DNA of 64,000 nucleotides from NCBI GenBank assembly GCA_964016885.1, contig OZ024742.1, positions 349,432,001-349,496,000 of the forward strand, given 5' to 3'. Below the pieces are notes generated by a model. The model was not told the DNA's origin. It ran no database searches and worked only from the letters and a program-made list of their open reading frames with translations. The DNA is from Eledone cirrhosa (Eukaryota). Shown here in pieces: positions 16,357 through 50,754 of the stretch; positions within the stretch are counted from its first letter, which is position 1, and each line of letters begins with the position of its first letter. Both the position numbers and the translations under genes were made by a program.

Positions 16357-16528
16357 TAGGAAAATGTTCAAGAATCCAACGGCAGAGCTCAAGCCGTTTC
16401 GACGGCTTTTTCTTGAGCTCTGTCGTCGGGGTCTTGAACATTTTCCTATTACCCATTCTAATACCCTAAGTATTGAGTACTCTGGTGCGTTATGGTCCAC
16501 CTGGTTCCTTACCACACTTCCCTCGTTA
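16357..16528 (+). mobile_element. ~190-bp hairpin-ended, (TA)n-inserted dispersed element, copy 1 (internally deleted hairpin)
   Basis: Shares the tail GTATTGAGTACTCTGGTGCGTTATGGTCCACCTGGTTCCTTACCAC with the other copies; (TA)n on both sides. Confidence 0.85.
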
Positions 16529-17129
16529 TACATACATACATACACACATATATATATATGTATATATATATATATATATATATATATATATATATATATA
16601 TATATATATATATATATATATATATATATATATATATATATATGTATGATAATTTTATCATTATCATTATCATCATTATTATCATTAATTATTCCGCCAT
16701 CTTAATTTCTTGCAAGAAATGCCCTGCATGACACCCCAGGACTCTCAACCCACCAGTACTTTAAATGCTAATTTAATGGAATAAGGTAGAGAAATTAATC
16801 AGATGGCGTATCACGTGACAATGACGATTCAAAGAAATTTCCTTTTGTACAACTATTTCCTGTTAAACTAGGCTCAATTAAACCTTCAATATTGTGTTGA
16901 GTTGAGTTGAACCATGAATGTAGTGTCAGCACTTCTATCATGACTCATTGTCTTGGACCTCCGCCACTTTCGACGACCAGAGCTATCCCTAGCAGCTTAA
17001 ATGAATGGAACTGCCTGTTACTGAAATTAACGTGTAAATGACTGAGAATTCCACAGACAAGTGTGCCTTTAACCTACTTCCCAAGGAGATTCAGCATGAC
17101 TTCTTGAATTACAAGTATGATACAACTCA

Positions 17130-17270
17130 ATTTTGCCAGCTGATTGAACTGGAGCTATGTGAAATGATGTATCTTGCTTCCGGACACAACACGCTGCCCC
17201 CTCCGGGAATTGAACTCACAACTTTAGCATCATGAGCCCAGCACTATAACTATTAAACCAATCGGCTTCA
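17130..17270 (-). mobile_element. tRNA-derived SINE fragment (CORE-like domain)
   Basis: CTGGAGC..GTGAAATGA.GT.TCTTGCT...ACAACAC..GAATTGAACTCACAAC recurs at 42090-42210 and partly at 41455-41510. The reverse complement has a B-box-like GAGTTCAATTC. Confidence 0.6.
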
Positions 17271-19204
17271 ATATGTCTCAATGCTGTAGAATTATCTGAG
17301 CCCAGCACTGAATGCTAAGGAAAAACTAGTTAAACATACAATGTACTTTAATAAACGAACGTATCTTCATGACAGATAGATAGATAGAAAGAAGGAAAGA
17401 AAAAGAGAAAAAAAAAAAGAAAGAGAGAAATAAATGAATAAAGAAATAAAGAAAGAAAGAAAAGAAAAACAAAGAAATTAGCTGCTAAACGAAGTGAAAT
17501 ACATATACAAACACTAGATGTAGGAGCACTTGACAGCTAGGTGGACTGAGGTATTGGAAAGGTATGTAATGTGGTCAGACCACTTAACAGCTAGGTGGAC
17601 TGAGGTATGTAGACAATGCAATATCAGTAATATAATCTGTGTCACCAACAACTAAGTCACTGCTTGTTTGTGACCAGGTTAGCATTAGTTTGTAGTATTA
17701 TGGTCATTAACAACGTCCAGCTGTGATAATTTCATCTTTTCCATTAAACATTGTGTTTAACACTACACTCTCTAATATGTTCTTTCATTATTAAGACAGA
17801 AGATTGTGATTTGAGTGATATTTGACTGCTATTTATAGCAAACTCGGCCAGGTTAGATAGATTAGATTTTTATAGCAAATATACTGATTTCATGGAAGAC
17901 AGGTAAAAGAGCTAACGGCCTGTGGTCGCTCGTATTGTCAGAAATATTAACCCAAATCCCCACAAATCGCACCACATTGTCTTAAAGGGAGGACACATTA
18001 GACGATATAGTTGTAGATATATAATATATGTCTGAGAGGCTTGGCTGTGTTTGATCAAATATATGTTTCAACATGGCGGACTTGGGGTGAAAGAAGAAAA
18101 AGAATAATAACAACAACCACATAGAGACATGTTCTATGACAGTGGTTCCCATGGTGACTTTTTCGCGGAACACTTATACAATTTTCCGAAAATCACAGAA
18201 TCAATACCTATATTTTACGGACAATTTCCACCACCCTAATTTTAATAATACAATAAGTGAGTCAATATCTTCATAAATATGCAAACATGGTGGTCCCGTA
18301 ATTCCTGATGGGTCTTAGTGGCGCTGTAGTGGCATACAGAGTTTCTAAGGCATTTAAAGCCTGGTGGAGCCCATCCCTCTCTAGGTGTGAATATAGCAGA
18401 GTTTCTTCCAGAGAAGGATTGAAAGTGAGCAATATAAATAAATAAATAAATAATATATATCTATATATATCTATATATCTATATATATATATATATATAT
18501 ATATATATATATATATATATATATATATATATATATATATATATATATATATCTATCTATATATATCTATATATATCTATATATATATATATATATATAT
18601 ATATATATATATATATATATATATATATAAATGTAAGTATGTATGTATACGTACATACATATATGTATACAGACGTACAGTAGCATGCATATATATATAT
18701 ATATATATATATATATATATATATATATATATATATATATATATATACAGGTACACATACATATATGTACGCACCAGTTTAGCGGACGCTTATTATAGCG
18801 CCCGCTTTGTTCGTTTGTAAACAAACTGAACAGCCTGAATTTATGCCGCACGGTGTCCAGGCAACCACGTCAACTTTTTGTTCAACACTGACACAGGAAC
18901 GATGTACTAGTTTCAAGCTTGTTAGCTATCATCAGCACCGTATACCCATCTGCCAGATAGTTGAACGTTCGAAAGTATATACTTTCCTTATGAAAATTAA
19001 CGGCTGAGCAGCCTAATTTGCATATCGAGTGAGTTAAATCGGTCAGGCGCACCGAAAACGATGAGTTGTAATAAAATGAAACTGTACGTCTGTATACATA
19101 TATGTATGTACGTATACATACATACTTACATTTAAATAAGTGCCGTACTAATTGTGAGAAATGAAATTTCGTTTTCATTTTATTACAACTATATATATAT
19201 ATAT

Positions 19205-19600
19205 ATTAGAATTGGTGCTCTGAAATAGCGATGTATATTTGAATGTATATATAGTATACTTGGCAATACACTGTATGCTTAATTAAAAGCATTTTGAAGA
19301 CCTGACGCTATTGTTTAAAGTAGTGACTATGTCACTTACTTCTTTTTTCAAGAAACAAAGGGAGATAAGCTGACAGATCTCTGTTTCATACTCTTGGTAT
19401 TCCTCAGACAAACAAGGGGAGTGCTAAGCTCTGAGGAATACCAAGAGTATGAAACAGAGATCTGACAGCTTATCTCCCTTTGTTTCTTGAAAAAAAGAAG
19501 TAAGTGACATAGTTACTACTTTAAAACAATAGCGTAAGGTCTTCAAAATGCTTTTAATTAAGCATACAGTGTATTACCAAATACACTATATATACATTCA
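19205..19600. mobile_element. (TA)n-flanked foldback element with hammerhead motif (arms ~19240-19408 / 19430-19600)
   Basis: ~170-bp inverted arms with a few substitutions; TA runs at both ends. Confidence 0.9.
19425..19472 (+). ncRNA. Type I hammerhead ribozyme motif (cleavage triplet mutated to GAC in this arm)
   Basis: TAAGCT-CTGAGGA-ATAC caaga GTAT-GAAA-CAGAGATCTG-AC-AGCTTA. The opposite arm retains GTC, and stem I extends (AAACAAGGGGAG / CTCCCTTTGTTT) past a bulge. Confidence 0.8.
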
Positions 19601-20135
19601 TATATATATATATATATATAAGGTAAGTTATTCCGGGTTGAATCGGAAGTAACCACAGTAAGTAAGGTACTCAATACATAGCAGAGTATTAAAGTTTTAA
19701 TATAGATGAGATTCTACAGGACTAGAACTGTTTCATTCTTTAGAAATCATCGGGAATCTATATATTTAAATATATCTAAACGTACCAAGGATCTCACACA
19801 TTTTCCTTTCTTGAAGACAGATATTTATATCTGTCTTCAGTCGTCAGAATGAATAACATGGAATGTTTATTAAATATTAGATTTGAAAACAAAATTTAGA
19901 ACATTTGAAAGTGAGGCTGAAATCAAATAACGGGTAAAAAATTGGAGGGAAAAAATATATAAATAAATATCTAGAACATAAACATACACACACACAAATA
20001 CACGCTTATACGTAATAGTACTTAGACATATACATTCTCACATAAGTGTATTTGCGTCTACATGGAAATACGAACAGACACATATAAACGTGTGATCATT
20101 TGCTCACACACGCGCACACACAGGCGCACACTCAC

Positions 20136-20315
20136 GGAAATGTGGTAAGGAACCAGGTGGACCATAACGCACCAAAGTACTCAATACTTGAGGTAGTAGA
20201 GTGGGTAATAGGAACCAGTAAGACCCCGACAGCTGAGCTCAAGCCGTTTCGACGGCTAATTGAATTAGCCGTCGAAACGGCTTGAGCTCAGCTGTCGGGG
20301 TCTTACTGGTTCCTA
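20136..20315 (-). mobile_element. ~190-bp hairpin-ended (TA)n element, copy 2
   Basis: Same family tail; near-perfect hairpin at ~20209-20315. Confidence 0.85.
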
Positions 20316-49106: not shown

Positions 49107-49741
49107 GTAAAGAAGTAAAGGAGAGGGGAGCACCTTCTCCATGTGCTCCCCGGGCAAAGGATTGCACACTTTTTCGGGGGTGTGTGCAACCCCCATCACG
49201 TCCCCTCCCTTTTGAGGTTATTTTCGATTATTTTCATGTTACACCCTTTTTACTCGATTATATGTAAACTCCCCCTTTGTATTTGTCCCTTCTTTTTATG
49301 CCTTTATGGTAAATAAAGAAATCTATCTATTTATAAAGAAAATTTCGCTTTTTTATTTGAATTTGGCAAAGCCGGCCATTTATCGCTCGTAAACAGGAAA
49401 GTGACTGGCCGGTCTGCTGATATGCAAATCTGGCTGATCAGTGGATCTGCTAATATGCAGATCTAAATGATCAGCCAGTCTGCTAATATGCAAATAAGGC
49501 CGATCAGTCACTGTGTATTTTTGAAAATAGCATATATTTTCACTAGCTCTGACAGTTTGGCAGGTGAACAGTGAGCTGTACTGATGAAGGGTGATATCCA
49601 GAAACATTAGTGTCTGTAGTTCTGTTCGCATGCCAACACAAGAGCATGGCTATAAAATTGAGGCTTGTTTGCAAAATTGCAAACGAATCGAATGTTATTA
49701 TTAATATTCGAAAAACTCAGATTACACACGCATATATATAT

Positions 49742-50399
49742 ATATGAATAAAGTGGTCCTTCATCAGTGATCTTCCAACCATCATCGGTATTTCTTCGCT
49801 TTAAAGACCATATACTTCCGGTTGGTGCGAGCAACGGCTAAAGAAAGTCGTTGGGGCATGTAAATAAAGGGAACAGCGAGAGTGTAAACAAACAAAGATG
49901 GTGAAGCAACGAAAAGTGAGGAAGAGCGAGTCAAGTCCAAAAATTTCCATGAATATAAGTTCGGTGAAATCGTGAACGAGAGAGAATAAAGACCATCAAA
50001 CCTGGTTGAAATGTGAGCAAGGAAGGAATTTCGCACAGGTCTAACGGGAGGAAGAAGGGGTCTAGTCTGTGAATTCGGTAAACATAAGTTCTGTGAAATC
50101 GTAGACGAGAGAGAGAAAAAATGCCGACCGGCCTGGCCAAGCGTGCGAAAGAAAAGAATTACGCACAGGTCAAACGGGAAGAAGGAGGAGGAGGAGAGGT
50201 AGTAACAGAGAGTGAGTGAGTGAAGGGTGAGGAAGAGGCTAACAGAGAGAGTGACTGTTAGAGAGGGTAAAGATACAGAGAAAGAGGAAGCAGTAAGAAC
50301 GAAATAGACGAGTCACAGCGGGAGAAAAAAATATGTGTAAATATGAGAATAAACGTGCTGCGGAGTTGCAAATGGGTTACATATGAATAAAGTGGTCCT
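49742..50399 (-). mobile_element. TA-bounded element with 19-bp terminal direct repeat (639-bp period)
   Basis: ATATGAATAAAGTGGTCCT at 49742-49760 and 50381-50399; internal ~125-bp degenerate repeats. Confidence 0.55.
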
Positions 50400-50414
50400 A
50401 TATATATATATATA

Positions 50415-50459
50415 TGTCTGAAAATCCTGTGAGTACACAGAAGAAACTCCGGTGTAACA
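50415..50459 (+). ncRNA. Degenerate hammerhead motif between TA tracts
   Basis: TGT-CTGAAAA-tcCTGTG agta CACAGaa-GAAA-CTCCGGTG-TA-ACA, then AATAAAC and (TA)n; G8 is mutated. Confidence 0.55.
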
Positions 50460-50551
50460 AGATATATCACTTAGACACAATAAACTATATATATATATAT
50501 ATATATATATATATATATATATATATATATATATATATATATATATATATA

Positions 50552-50754
50552 TAACAAAGAGGGTGTGGTAAGATACCAGGTGGACCATAACGCACCAGAG
50601 TACTCAATACTTAGGGTAGTAGAGTGGGAAATAGGAAAAGAGTCAGGACCCCGACGGCTGAGTTCCGGCCGTTTAGACAGCTAGATGTGAACTGTTCGGA
50701 TCTAGCTGTCGAAGCGGCCGGAGCTCAGCCGTCGGGGTCCTGACTCTTTTCCTA
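50552..50754 (-). mobile_element. ~190-bp hairpin-ended (TA)n element, copy 6
   Basis: Family tail plus hairpin; TA on both sides. Confidence 0.85.

What the first reader, a model, noticed from the sequence alone, without database searches (positions are those of the whole stretch)
16357..50754. A system of diverse (TA)n-targeted, hammerhead-carrying foldback retroelements
Seen: at least seven sequence-unrelated non-coding elements (19.2, 23.1, 26.0, 30.5, 31.1, 32.2 and 37.5 kb) plus fragments (21.2, 25.5, 39.1 and 50.4 kb) share one architecture. Nearly all sit in (TA)n and carry a type I hammerhead motif with a tiny, often palindromic stem III. The seven large elements form inverted repeats whose hammerhead-sense strands always read from the centre outward into the microsatellite. 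Known: Penelope-like elements and metazoan non-LTR retrozymes carry such minimal hammerheads, and some PLE clades target microsatellites. Inference: these are multiple non-autonomous ribozyme retroelement families using one TA-nicking PLE enzyme and routinely integrating as head-to-head palindromes. I am not aware of this being described at this density or in a cephalopod-like genome.
Basis: partly seen in the sequence, partly recalled or inferred. Interest (0 to 1): 0.9.

Follow-up and report, generated by a model that had tools for sequence, protein, structure and literature searches.

The report
Penelope ends and retrozymes in TA
The mirror-image repeats in TA microsatellites are real and carry hammerhead-shaped RNA motifs predicted to cut themselves; some are broken-off ends of a known kind of jumping gene (Hydra-type Penelope-like elements), others are non-coding tandem repeats with the same end pattern, which are likely copied by those genes' enzymes.

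Summary
The interpretation needs correcting. Hammerhead motifs are far above chance: 13 in the window vs 0.07 in shuffles, and 79 in 1 Mb sampled genome-wide vs 0, 0, 0, roughly 2x10^5 per genome. Stems covary, and same-family pairs face outward in 9 of 9 cases. The elements are not all non-autonomous, and more than one enzyme is present. The 23.1 and 26.0 kb elements, the 25.5 kb fragment and the short 16-50 kb foldbacks are 5'-truncated 3' ends of different ORF-bearing Hydra-clade Penelope-like elements. The 19.2, 31.1, 32.2 and 37.5 kb elements are ORF-less tandem retrozymes (320-540 nt units). The 30.5 kb element is unresolved. All families have two fixed 3' ends, and foldbacks pair one long with one short end (76 of 82; then 26 of 26), either arm being the longer. 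This best fits two-sided target priming. Hydra elements, TA targeting, inverted copies, tails and hammerheads are published, including for Octopus. The density and the end rule shared with retrozyme arrays were not found in my paper searches; this scan's AI notes report both the system and the rule on other windows. Cleavage, circles and mobilisation in trans are untested.

The parts
23108..24058 (.). Foldback of the 3' end of an ORF-bearing Hydra-clade PLE (family F23). Left arm (-) has the long end with a ~180-nt tail; right arm (+) has the short end. Hammerheads at 23422-23532 (-) and 23818-23928 (+), core CCGAUGA, palindromic stem III, 86-nt stem-loop II.
26002..27913 (.). Foldback of the 3' UTR of a second Hydra-clade PLE (F26). 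Main copy 26684-27913 (+) with the long end; inverted copy 26002-26690 (-) with the short end. Hammerheads at 26052-26106 (-) and 27703-27757 (+).
24465..25553 (.). Truncated copy of a third Hydra-clade PLE (F25.5). 3' UTR on + (24617-25553), hammerhead-like motif at ~25485-25532 with core CAGAAGA, and an inverted, non-duplicated piece of GIY-YIG coding sequence at 24465-24609 (-).
20136..20315 (.). Short foldback of the extreme 3' end of a fourth, very young Hydra-clade PLE (F16), 126 of 126 nt identical to an ORF-linked copy. It holds only the 3' half of a U3:A8 hammerhead. Related pieces: 16358-16528, 25911-25971, 32010-32176, 38393-38588, 39297-39491, 50553-50752 (84-95% to that parent).
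32198..35505 (.). Two-armed array of a 465-nt ORF-less tandem retrozyme (F32). Left arm (-) has five canonical minimal hammerheads (32421-32465, 32887-32931, 33702-33746, 34517-34561, 34982-35026) and the short end; right arm 35211-35505 (+) has the long end.
31111..31893 (.). Foldback of a ~538-nt tandem retrozyme (F31). Hammerhead at 31751-31832 (+), 51-nt stem-loop II; long end left, short end right.
37480..38305 (.). Foldback of a ~493-nt tandem retrozyme (F37). Hammerhead at 37679-37759 (-); long end left, short end right.
19206..19600 (.). Foldback of a ~320-nt tandem retrozyme (F19). The motif at ~19426-19476 is damaged in this copy and canonical in others; long end left, short end right.
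30498..30861 (.). Foldback (F30) centred just 5' of a weak hammerhead-like motif (~30643-30738, +). Short end left, long end (70-nt tail) right. No ORF and no tandem form found.
18632..19190 (-). Copy of a tandem retrozyme distantly related to F32 (66-73% in two patches); hammerhead at 18899-18941.
21095..21350 (.). Foldback with a minimal hammerhead (~21210-21260, -), not in a TA tract. In 2 other loci its relatives lie 350-500 nt downstream of a weak match to a different, CCHH-type GIY-YIG.
39064..39262 (-). Short piece between TA tracts with a damaged hammerhead (long loop II, palindromic stem III); family not resolved.
49573..49622 (+).
49735..50398 (-). TA-flanked ~670-nt unit with a short direct terminal repeat. 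It ends inside a hammerhead-like core; family not resolved.

Best explanation
The window is a dense sample of a genome-wide population of TA-inserted, hammerhead-motif elements made of truncated 3' ends of several ORF-bearing Hydra-clade Penelope-like elements and of ORF-less tandem retrozymes, and the foldbacks are likely made when a Penelope enzyme cuts both strands of a (TA)n tract and primes two DNA copies, one from each side. Shown: the ORF links, the tandem units, two fixed 3' ends per family, the one-long-one-short pairing, and that either arm can be the longer. Inferred from Frangieh 2024 (both strands cut and extended, two internal start sites, predicted dimer; Poseidon clade): each target end primes reverse transcription at one of the two family-specific sites downstream of the hammerhead, both cDNAs run toward the RNA 5' end, stop early and are joined head to head. 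Inferred: retrozyme RNAs (multimers or hammerhead-made circles) are copied in trans by the same kind of enzyme, which would give de novo arrays of identical units. Untested: cleavage, circles, and which enzyme serves which retrozyme.
For: ORF links: F23 copies extend >1.4 kb upstream into RT + CxCX5C linker + GIY-YIG; one copy shows a pseudo-LTR, start codon, RWK and DKT. Likewise F26, F16 (6 of 20 loci) and F25.5 (4 loci). Retrozymes: no upstream endonuclease for 43 F19, 90 F31 or 91 F32 anchor hits, and one unrelated-type match among 40 F37 hits. Tandem units are 320, ~538, 465 and ~493 nt; longest ATG frame <=45 aa in the F19, F31 and F37 units listed. F32 arrays are 100% identical on many contigs (294 matches). 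End rule: of 101 foldbacks, 76 long+short, 6 long+long, 0 short+short, 19 undetermined (p about 1e-16). Later loci gave 26 of 26, about 4 of them repeats. F32 arrays resolved at both ends: 4 of 4. The longer arm carries the long end in 21 cases and the short end in 16. The 24.5 kb insertion has an inversion without duplication, as two-sided priming predicts. (TA)5 lies within 400 nt downstream of 51 of 57 arms vs 25% background.
Against: No biochemical or RNA evidence here. Frangieh 2024 saw no difference in start site between strands and found no homology between target and start site, whereas the short ends here share 2-9 nt with (TA)n (read). Six long+long foldbacks break the rule (some may be classification errors). 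No retrozyme unit resembles the 3' UTR of any ORF-bearing family beyond AT-rich patches, so no partner was identified, and Naiad elements of Octopus also prefer (TA)n. Loci for the end counts were the best matches to my queries, not a random draw. (TA)5 also lies within 400 nt upstream of 20 of 38 single-orientation arms, since these elements cluster in TA-rich ground.
Confidence: 0.7

Rival explanations
1. Foldbacks arise by self-priming (snap-back) of one nucleic acid strand, as proposed for rotifer Penelopes, and the second arm ends where it meets TA microhomology.
For: Arkhipova 2013 reads palindromic head-to-head junctions as self-priming. Many F16 and F30 centres sit at strong hairpins (loop II; a hairpin just 5' of the F30 motif). 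Short ends share 2-9 nt with (TA)n. It explains 0 short+short.
Against: Snap-back of a long-end cDNA makes the long-end arm always the longer; the short-end arm is longer in 16 of 37 cases, including 6 of 16 in the non-tandem F23/F26. A short-end strand has no template for the tail. The 24.5 kb inversion has no duplicated part.
Confidence: 0.15
2. The four 'retrozymes' and F30 are also pseudo-LTR ends of ORF-bearing PLEs that I did not reach, amplified locally as satellites.
For: F16 looked ORF-less in 93 hits until a targeted search found its parent. Only 33-40 of 550-3100 candidates were scored per DNA search. Li 2026 proposes that retrozymes derive from pseudo-LTRs and amplify locally.
Against: Upstream of F19, F31, F32 and F37 lies another unit of the same repeat, not new sequence. 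Arrays of up to 14 or more identical units stand at many unlinked loci with fresh TA junctions and the long+short ends. For F30 the rival stays open.
Confidence: 0.1
3. One reading: all elements are non-autonomous families served by a single TA-nicking enzyme.
For: Shared architecture; one enzyme could in principle serve all the retrozymes.
Against: Four window families have their own ORFs, and further Hydra-type ORFs precede other hammerhead families in the 1-Mb sample. RT identity among families is 47-53%.
Confidence: 0.03
4. The palindromes are MITE-like DNA transposons with TA target sites, or assembly artefacts, and the motifs are chance.
For: F30 looked fixed in length in one search; TA flanks; inverted arms.
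Against: Ends are asymmetric (tail on one arm), centres vary, motifs give 79 vs 0 in shuffles, stems covary, and arms differ by 1-12%, unlike a read fold-back artefact.
Confidence: 0.02

Closest known systems
Hydra clade of C-terminal-endonuclease Penelope-like elements, incl. Hydra-1_Obim of Octopus bimaculoides (Craig et al. 2021, PMC8557442; abstract, passages, section 11, supplement tables S1/S2 and sequence passages seen)
   Same: Single ORF, RT then GIY-YIG; RWK, DKT, CxCX5C linker, CxxC and CxH, no CCHH; (TA)n insertion; type I hammerhead near the 3' end; 5' truncation; inverted 5'-truncated copy (Penelope-13_HM); tail at one end only.
   Different: Many distinct families here rather than one; longer elements (F23 about 3.3 kb; UTRs to 1.3 kb); tails of 30-180 nt rather than 30-40; long loop II and family-wide U4C, U4A or U3:A8 cores. 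The listed Hydra-1_Obim hammerhead matches none of the window's by eye.
Metazoan non-LTR retrozymes (Cervera and de la Pena 2020, PMC7229834, passages; Li et al. 2026, 10.64898/2026.07.22.740005, parts 1-3 of 5)
   Same: ORF-less tandem units of 300-550 nt with one type I hammerhead each and a weak palindromic stem III; coexistence with PLEs; PLEs proposed as the mobiliser.
   Different: Neither text as seen covers cephalopods or describes TA-targeted two-armed arrays with PLE-type long and short ends. RNA circles and cleavage were shown there, not here. No pseudo-LTR relative was found for these units.
Poseidon element PAc of Anolis (Frangieh et al. 2024, PMC11167929; parts 1-3 of 4)
   Same: Two internal reverse-transcription start sites that define the tail; both strands of AT-rich DNA cut and extended; hammerhead upstream of the start sites.
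   Different: Different clade; sites adjacent and without target homology; no strand difference in start site reported; no foldback pairing rule described in the parts read.
Minimal PLE hammerheads (Cervera and de la Pena 2014, PMC4209133; parts 1-2 of 4)
   Same: Thousands of dispersed motifs in many families per genome, opposite-strand pairs 100-700 bp apart, U3-A8 core variant, palindromic helix III, predicted dimer activity.
   Different: Counts there are ~2,000-9,000 per genome; here about 2x10^5 by a different descriptor.

Membership tests
Hydra-clade PLE (F23, F26, F16, F25.5) | [quoted passage not shown] | tested here: met
   725-aa open frame in L185 with RT motifs (YRDD) and C-terminal VY..YIG. 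Pfam GIY-YIG only weak (E 0.002, F26); weak match to a retron RT (E 0.02); Atlas neighbours carry RVT_1 and GIY-YIG. Fold not obtained.
Hydra-clade PLE (F23, F26, F16, F25.5) | RWK motif and DKG modified to DKT | tested here: met
   F23: RWK and DKT in L184/L185. F25.5 parent: DKT. N-termini of F26 and F16 not read.
Hydra-clade PLE (F23, F26, F16, F25.5) | CxCX5C linker; CxxC and CxH around the conserved E and N; CCHH absent | tested here: met
   Read by eye from translations for F23, F26 and F25.5; CxxC and CxH for F16.
Hydra-clade PLE (F23, F26, F16, F25.5) | Pseudo-LTR from partial tandem, one-sided tail, inverted 5'-truncated copy | tested here: met
   L184: 3' region and tail stand directly before the start codon.
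Hydra-clade PLE (F23, F26, F16, F25.5) | (TA)n insertion and canonical hammerhead near the 3' end | tested here: met
   TA ends. Canonical core in F26; variant cores in F23 (U4C, 59 of 66), F25.5 (U4A, 34 of 45) and F16 (U3:A8).
Hydra-clade PLE (F23, F26, F16, F25.5) | Phylogenetic placement within Hydra; length generally under 3 kb | tested here: inconclusive
   No tree with reference sequences was built; motif order matches Hydra-1_Obim by eye. F23 is about 3.3 kb.
Non-LTR retrozyme (F19, F31, F32, F37) | Head-to-tail units of ~150-550 nt, one type I hammerhead per unit, no ORF | tested here: met
   F19 rests on one full tandem pair plus partial ones, F37 on two. The ORF check did not include F32.
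Non-LTR retrozyme (F19, F31, F32, F37) | Hammerhead structure conserved by selection | tested here: met
   Both-side changes in 6 of 14 pairs (F32 group) and 9 of 23 (F31 group); 7 distinct, related sequences each.
Non-LTR retrozyme (F19, F31, F32, F37) | Self-cleavage and circular RNA | not testable with these tools
   No run on record as RNA was listed.
Non-LTR retrozyme (F19, F31, F32, F37) | Derivation from a PLE pseudo-LTR | tested here: inconclusive
   No match to 3' UTRs of the ORF-bearing families held; most families of the genome were not sampled.
Non-LTR retrozyme (F30) | Tandem units | tested here: not met
   0 tandem pairs in the loci held; no upstream PLE-like ORF either.
MITE | Symmetric terminal inverted repeats and fixed structure | tested here: not met
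   One-sided tails and variable centres.

The most novel reading that the evidence does not exclude
Penelope-type enzymes act as an asymmetric pair: the two halves prime from opposite strands of a cut TA tract at two different fixed RNA sites, and ORF-less retrozyme RNAs are copied by the same reaction. This genome, with about 2x10^5 hammerheads and near-identical young autonomous and parasitic families side by side, would give direct genomic evidence of PLE mobilisation of retrozymes and the densest ribozyme population described in an animal.
Probability: 0.45. Interest if true: 0.68.

Novelty: new member of a known kind. Interest (0 to 1): 0.43.

Why it matters
How Penelope-like elements make their tandem and inverted insertions, and which enzyme moves animal retrozymes, are stated as open in the papers read. 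The one-long-one-short rule, shared by ORF-bearing elements and retrozyme arrays, turns both questions into one concrete prediction about where each target strand starts copying. Young families (99-100% identical copies) make it testable. The scale, about 70 motifs per Mb, also means a repeat class with RNA-cutting potential is spread through this genome, and the main text of the recent Octopus vulgaris repeat annotation mentions no ribozymes.

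Tried and rejected
A strict hammerhead scan (short loop II, no mismatch) found only F26 and F32, and a relaxed one added F19. My first reading, that 23.1, 30.5, 31.1 and 37.5 kb lack hammerheads, was dropped once long loop II was allowed. 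MITE reading of F30: rejected (one-sided tail). F16 as non-autonomous: rejected. An RT next to an F31 copy (L067) and endonucleases near F37 copies (L056, L041) belong to neighbouring insertions. Search for a retrozyme's autonomous partner by sequence: none. Common fold around the short end: none evident. Pfam gives no RT hit for these proteins. Structure prediction was not obtained. Expression: no RNA holder listed. In one search two runs of unrecorded kind hold the F32 unit as one end-to-start joined contig, which a tandem array or a circle would equally give, so it is not used as evidence. One fold (L112) used wrong coordinates and is ignored. One of 79 sample hits (L295, AT-rich, variant core) was dropped before the counts. 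Monomer folds are mixed: z -3.5 for F26, -2.4 for F31, near 0 for F23, F30 and F16, although F16 and F26 fold into the hammerhead shape.

Full report
Setting. The window lies on a 379-Mb contig of a 3.0-Gb animal genome, between a 39-bp satellite (1-15820) and a 61-bp satellite (56522-64000). That it is an octopod is my inference from recalled repeat style and from named protein relatives in Argonauta (34-45% identity); I did not test it.

Observation. All seven large foldbacks exist, with the hammerhead-sense strand reading outward. Rfam recognises only the five 32.2 kb motifs, below the family threshold, and a strict scan adds only 26.0 kb. The others have long stem-loop II inserts (26-86 nt) and often a mismatch at the base of stem II. 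A descriptor allowing these, written after I had seen the window, finds 13 motifs in 7 insertions in 40.7 kb (shuffle mean 0.07, max 1, n=30) and 79 in 100 evenly spaced 10-kb regions (three shuffles: 0, 0, 0). After dropping one likely chance hit, the 78 motifs form 49 insertions in 33 of 100 regions (bootstrap 46-122 and 34-65 per Mb) and 15-19 sequence families. Weighting the four large contigs (1617 Mb; 85 motifs per Mb) and the rest (50 per Mb) by hand gives about 2x10^5 motifs in 1.3x10^5 insertions. The window is about three times denser than average. Published counts by other descriptors are ~5,000 (mussel) and up to 120,000 (axolotl), and 2,000-9,000 minimal motifs in Schistosoma, coelacanth and Xenopus. 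In the sample, same-family opposite-strand pairs are divergent in 9 of 9 clear cases (one locus had a mixed -+- pattern), and 51 of 57 arms have (TA)5 within 400 nt downstream against 25% at random positions. Stems show both-side changes in 6 of 14 and 9 of 23 pairs in two groups of 7 related sequences, well above slid controls.

What the elements are. Group 1, ends of ORF-bearing elements. Copies of the 23.1 kb family stop at scattered 5' positions and the longest run into an ORF; a protein search gave 105 matches among 104 scored of 50,253 candidates, with open frames up to 727 aa. One copy shows a pseudo-LTR, a start codon, RWK, DKT, RT, CxCX5C linker, GIY-YIG, CxxC and CxH, with one frameshift: the motif set that defines the Hydra clade. 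The 26.0 kb family has its own ORF, 53% (RT) and 37% (C-terminal part) identical to the first. The short foldbacks at 16.4-50.6 kb are 3' halves of a U3:A8 hammerhead. A targeted search found 99%-identical copies, 6 of 20 with an upstream endonuclease ORF, and the 20.2 kb piece matches one at 126 of 126 nt. The 25.5 kb 'fragment' is the end of a 1.1-kb insertion that includes an inverted piece of its endonuclease. More Hydra-type ORFs precede other hammerhead families in the 1-Mb sample. Group 2, retrozymes. The 32.2 kb unit (465 nt) forms arrays at many unlinked loci at 100% identity (294 matches from 33 of 550 candidates; 150 listed); all 8 listed arrays with both orientations are divergent. 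The 19.2, 31.1 and 37.5 kb families occur as tandem units of 320, ~538 and ~493 nt (1, 23 and 2 pairs; longest ATG frame <=45 aa in those printed). No upstream endonuclease was found for 43 (F19), 90 (F31) and 91 (F32) anchor hits, and one unrelated-type match for 40 F37 hits (hits not de-duplicated). The 30.5 kb family has neither ORF nor tandem form in 50 fetched loci.

The end rule. Every family has two exact 3' ends into (TA)n, a short end 19-232 nt after the predicted cut site and a long end 30-180 nt further on. [quoted passage not shown] Of 101 foldbacks without an inner TA tract, 76 pair long with short, 6 long with long, none short with short, and 19 had one unclassified end. In 45 loci fetched later all 26 were long+short (about 4 repeat earlier loci, and the F30 query itself contained the tail). 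F32 arrays: of 8 examined outside the window 3 were resolved at both ends, and these and the window's array are all long+short. The 11 convergent neighbours are separate insertions, 10 with a TA tract between them and one 5 nt apart. Where one arm clearly reaches further 5', it is the long-end arm in 21 cases and the short-end arm in 16 (p=0.51). These loci were best matches to my queries, not a random draw.

Mechanism. Purified Poseidon protein cuts and extends both strands of AT-rich DNA, starts at two internal RNA sites that define the genomic tail, is predicted to be a dimer, and does not need the hammerhead in vitro. Read with that, the rule says each side of a cut TA tract primes one cDNA, one at each site, and the two truncated cDNAs join head to head (inferred). 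Snap-back self-priming, proposed for rotifer elements, cannot give a longer short-end arm or the non-duplicated inversion at 24.5 kb, though it may add to the pile-up of centres at hairpins in F16 and F30. Retrozyme arrays carry the same signature, which argues for copying in trans by a PLE enzyme from multimeric or circular RNA (inferred). No partner was found by sequence, and Naiads of Octopus are also TA-seeking. Against my reading: Frangieh saw no strand difference in start sites and no target homology; there are six long+long cases; and there is no RNA evidence here.

Prior art and novelty. Craig 2021 lists Hydra-1_Obim (2507 bp, (TA)n, hammerhead) and a Hydra element with an inverted 5'-truncated copy, and notes the tail at one end only. 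Cervera 2014 reports opposite-strand hammerhead pairs, U3-A8 and palindromic helix III. Arkhipova 2013 calls head-to-head the most frequent arrangement. Li 2026 links retrozymes to pseudo-LTRs in 35 animal genomes; its invertebrates are three insects and one anthozoan (supplements not seen). Searches for hammerhead + octopus, retrozyme + cephalopod and related terms returned no paper on cephalopod retrozymes, on this density, or on a counted pairing rule. The library lacks most subscription papers and Repbase/Dfam, and I did not open the O. vulgaris annotation's supplements (part 1 of 3 and a term search seen). U4C is a known natural variant of low in-vitro activity; U4A was not found in that paper's main text (PMC3088659, passages). 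AI notes from other windows of this scan, in this and other genomes, reach the same reading, including the end rule; I saw them, and they are not independent support.

Verdict. The finding is real and sharper than first stated, but it is built from known parts: new members of the Hydra-clade PLEs and of non-LTR retrozymes. What would interest a specialist is the scale and the shared end rule, which make two open questions directly testable. Interest 0.43.

Noticed in passing
window 43911-49106 (+): Apparently intact LINE: 574-aa ORF1 with a CCHC knuckle and 1156-aa ORF2 with endonuclease and RT motifs. L1/Tx1-like by recall, not tested.
   Followed up: no
window 51968-53600 (-): Second, broken copy of the same LINE group in opposite orientation, 84% complementary to the first over 1216 nt.
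   Followed up: no
window 1-15820 and 56522-64000: Satellites of 39 bp (406 copies) and 61 bp (123 copies) enclose the element-rich stretch.
   Followed up: no
window 23818-23928 and 25485-25532: Family-wide non-canonical position 4 in the hammerhead core: U4C in 59 of 66 F23 copies and U4A in 34 of 45 F25.5 copies. These abundant families may move with a weak or dead ribozyme.
   Followed up: partly
window 38590-38964: A 176-nt foldback built from short-end scraps of two different families (F37 and F25.5) separated by TA tracts; likely a secondary rearrangement.
   Followed up: no
window 33029-34544: The F32 array contains 350-nt units with an identical internal deletion that removes the hammerhead, interleaved with full 465-nt units.
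   Followed up: no
window 25600-25900: Another TA-ending imperfect foldback without a recognised hammerhead.
   Followed up: no
window 36129-36464 (+): 111-aa frame that looks like the C-terminal part of a LINE ORF2 (label recalled).
   Followed up: no
L288:148-7479: A 14-unit array of a 558-nt relative of F31 fell into the unselected sample.
   Followed up: partly
L217, L230, L266, L278, L288 and window 31751-31832: The long loop II of the F31 group holds an inner hairpin with 5 of 8 pairs changed on both sides, suggesting a function for the insert.
   Followed up: partly
one search hit list: Most of the 113 relatives of the Hydra protein sit on unnamed contigs of 2-3.5 kb from metagenomes and sequencing runs; one is labelled as from a gammaproteobacterial MAG. 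The clade seems much wider than its named members.
   Followed up: no
window 30891-31048 (-): TA-flanked 160-nt piece with a hammerhead 5' core but no complete motif and no other copy in the loci held.
   Followed up: partly
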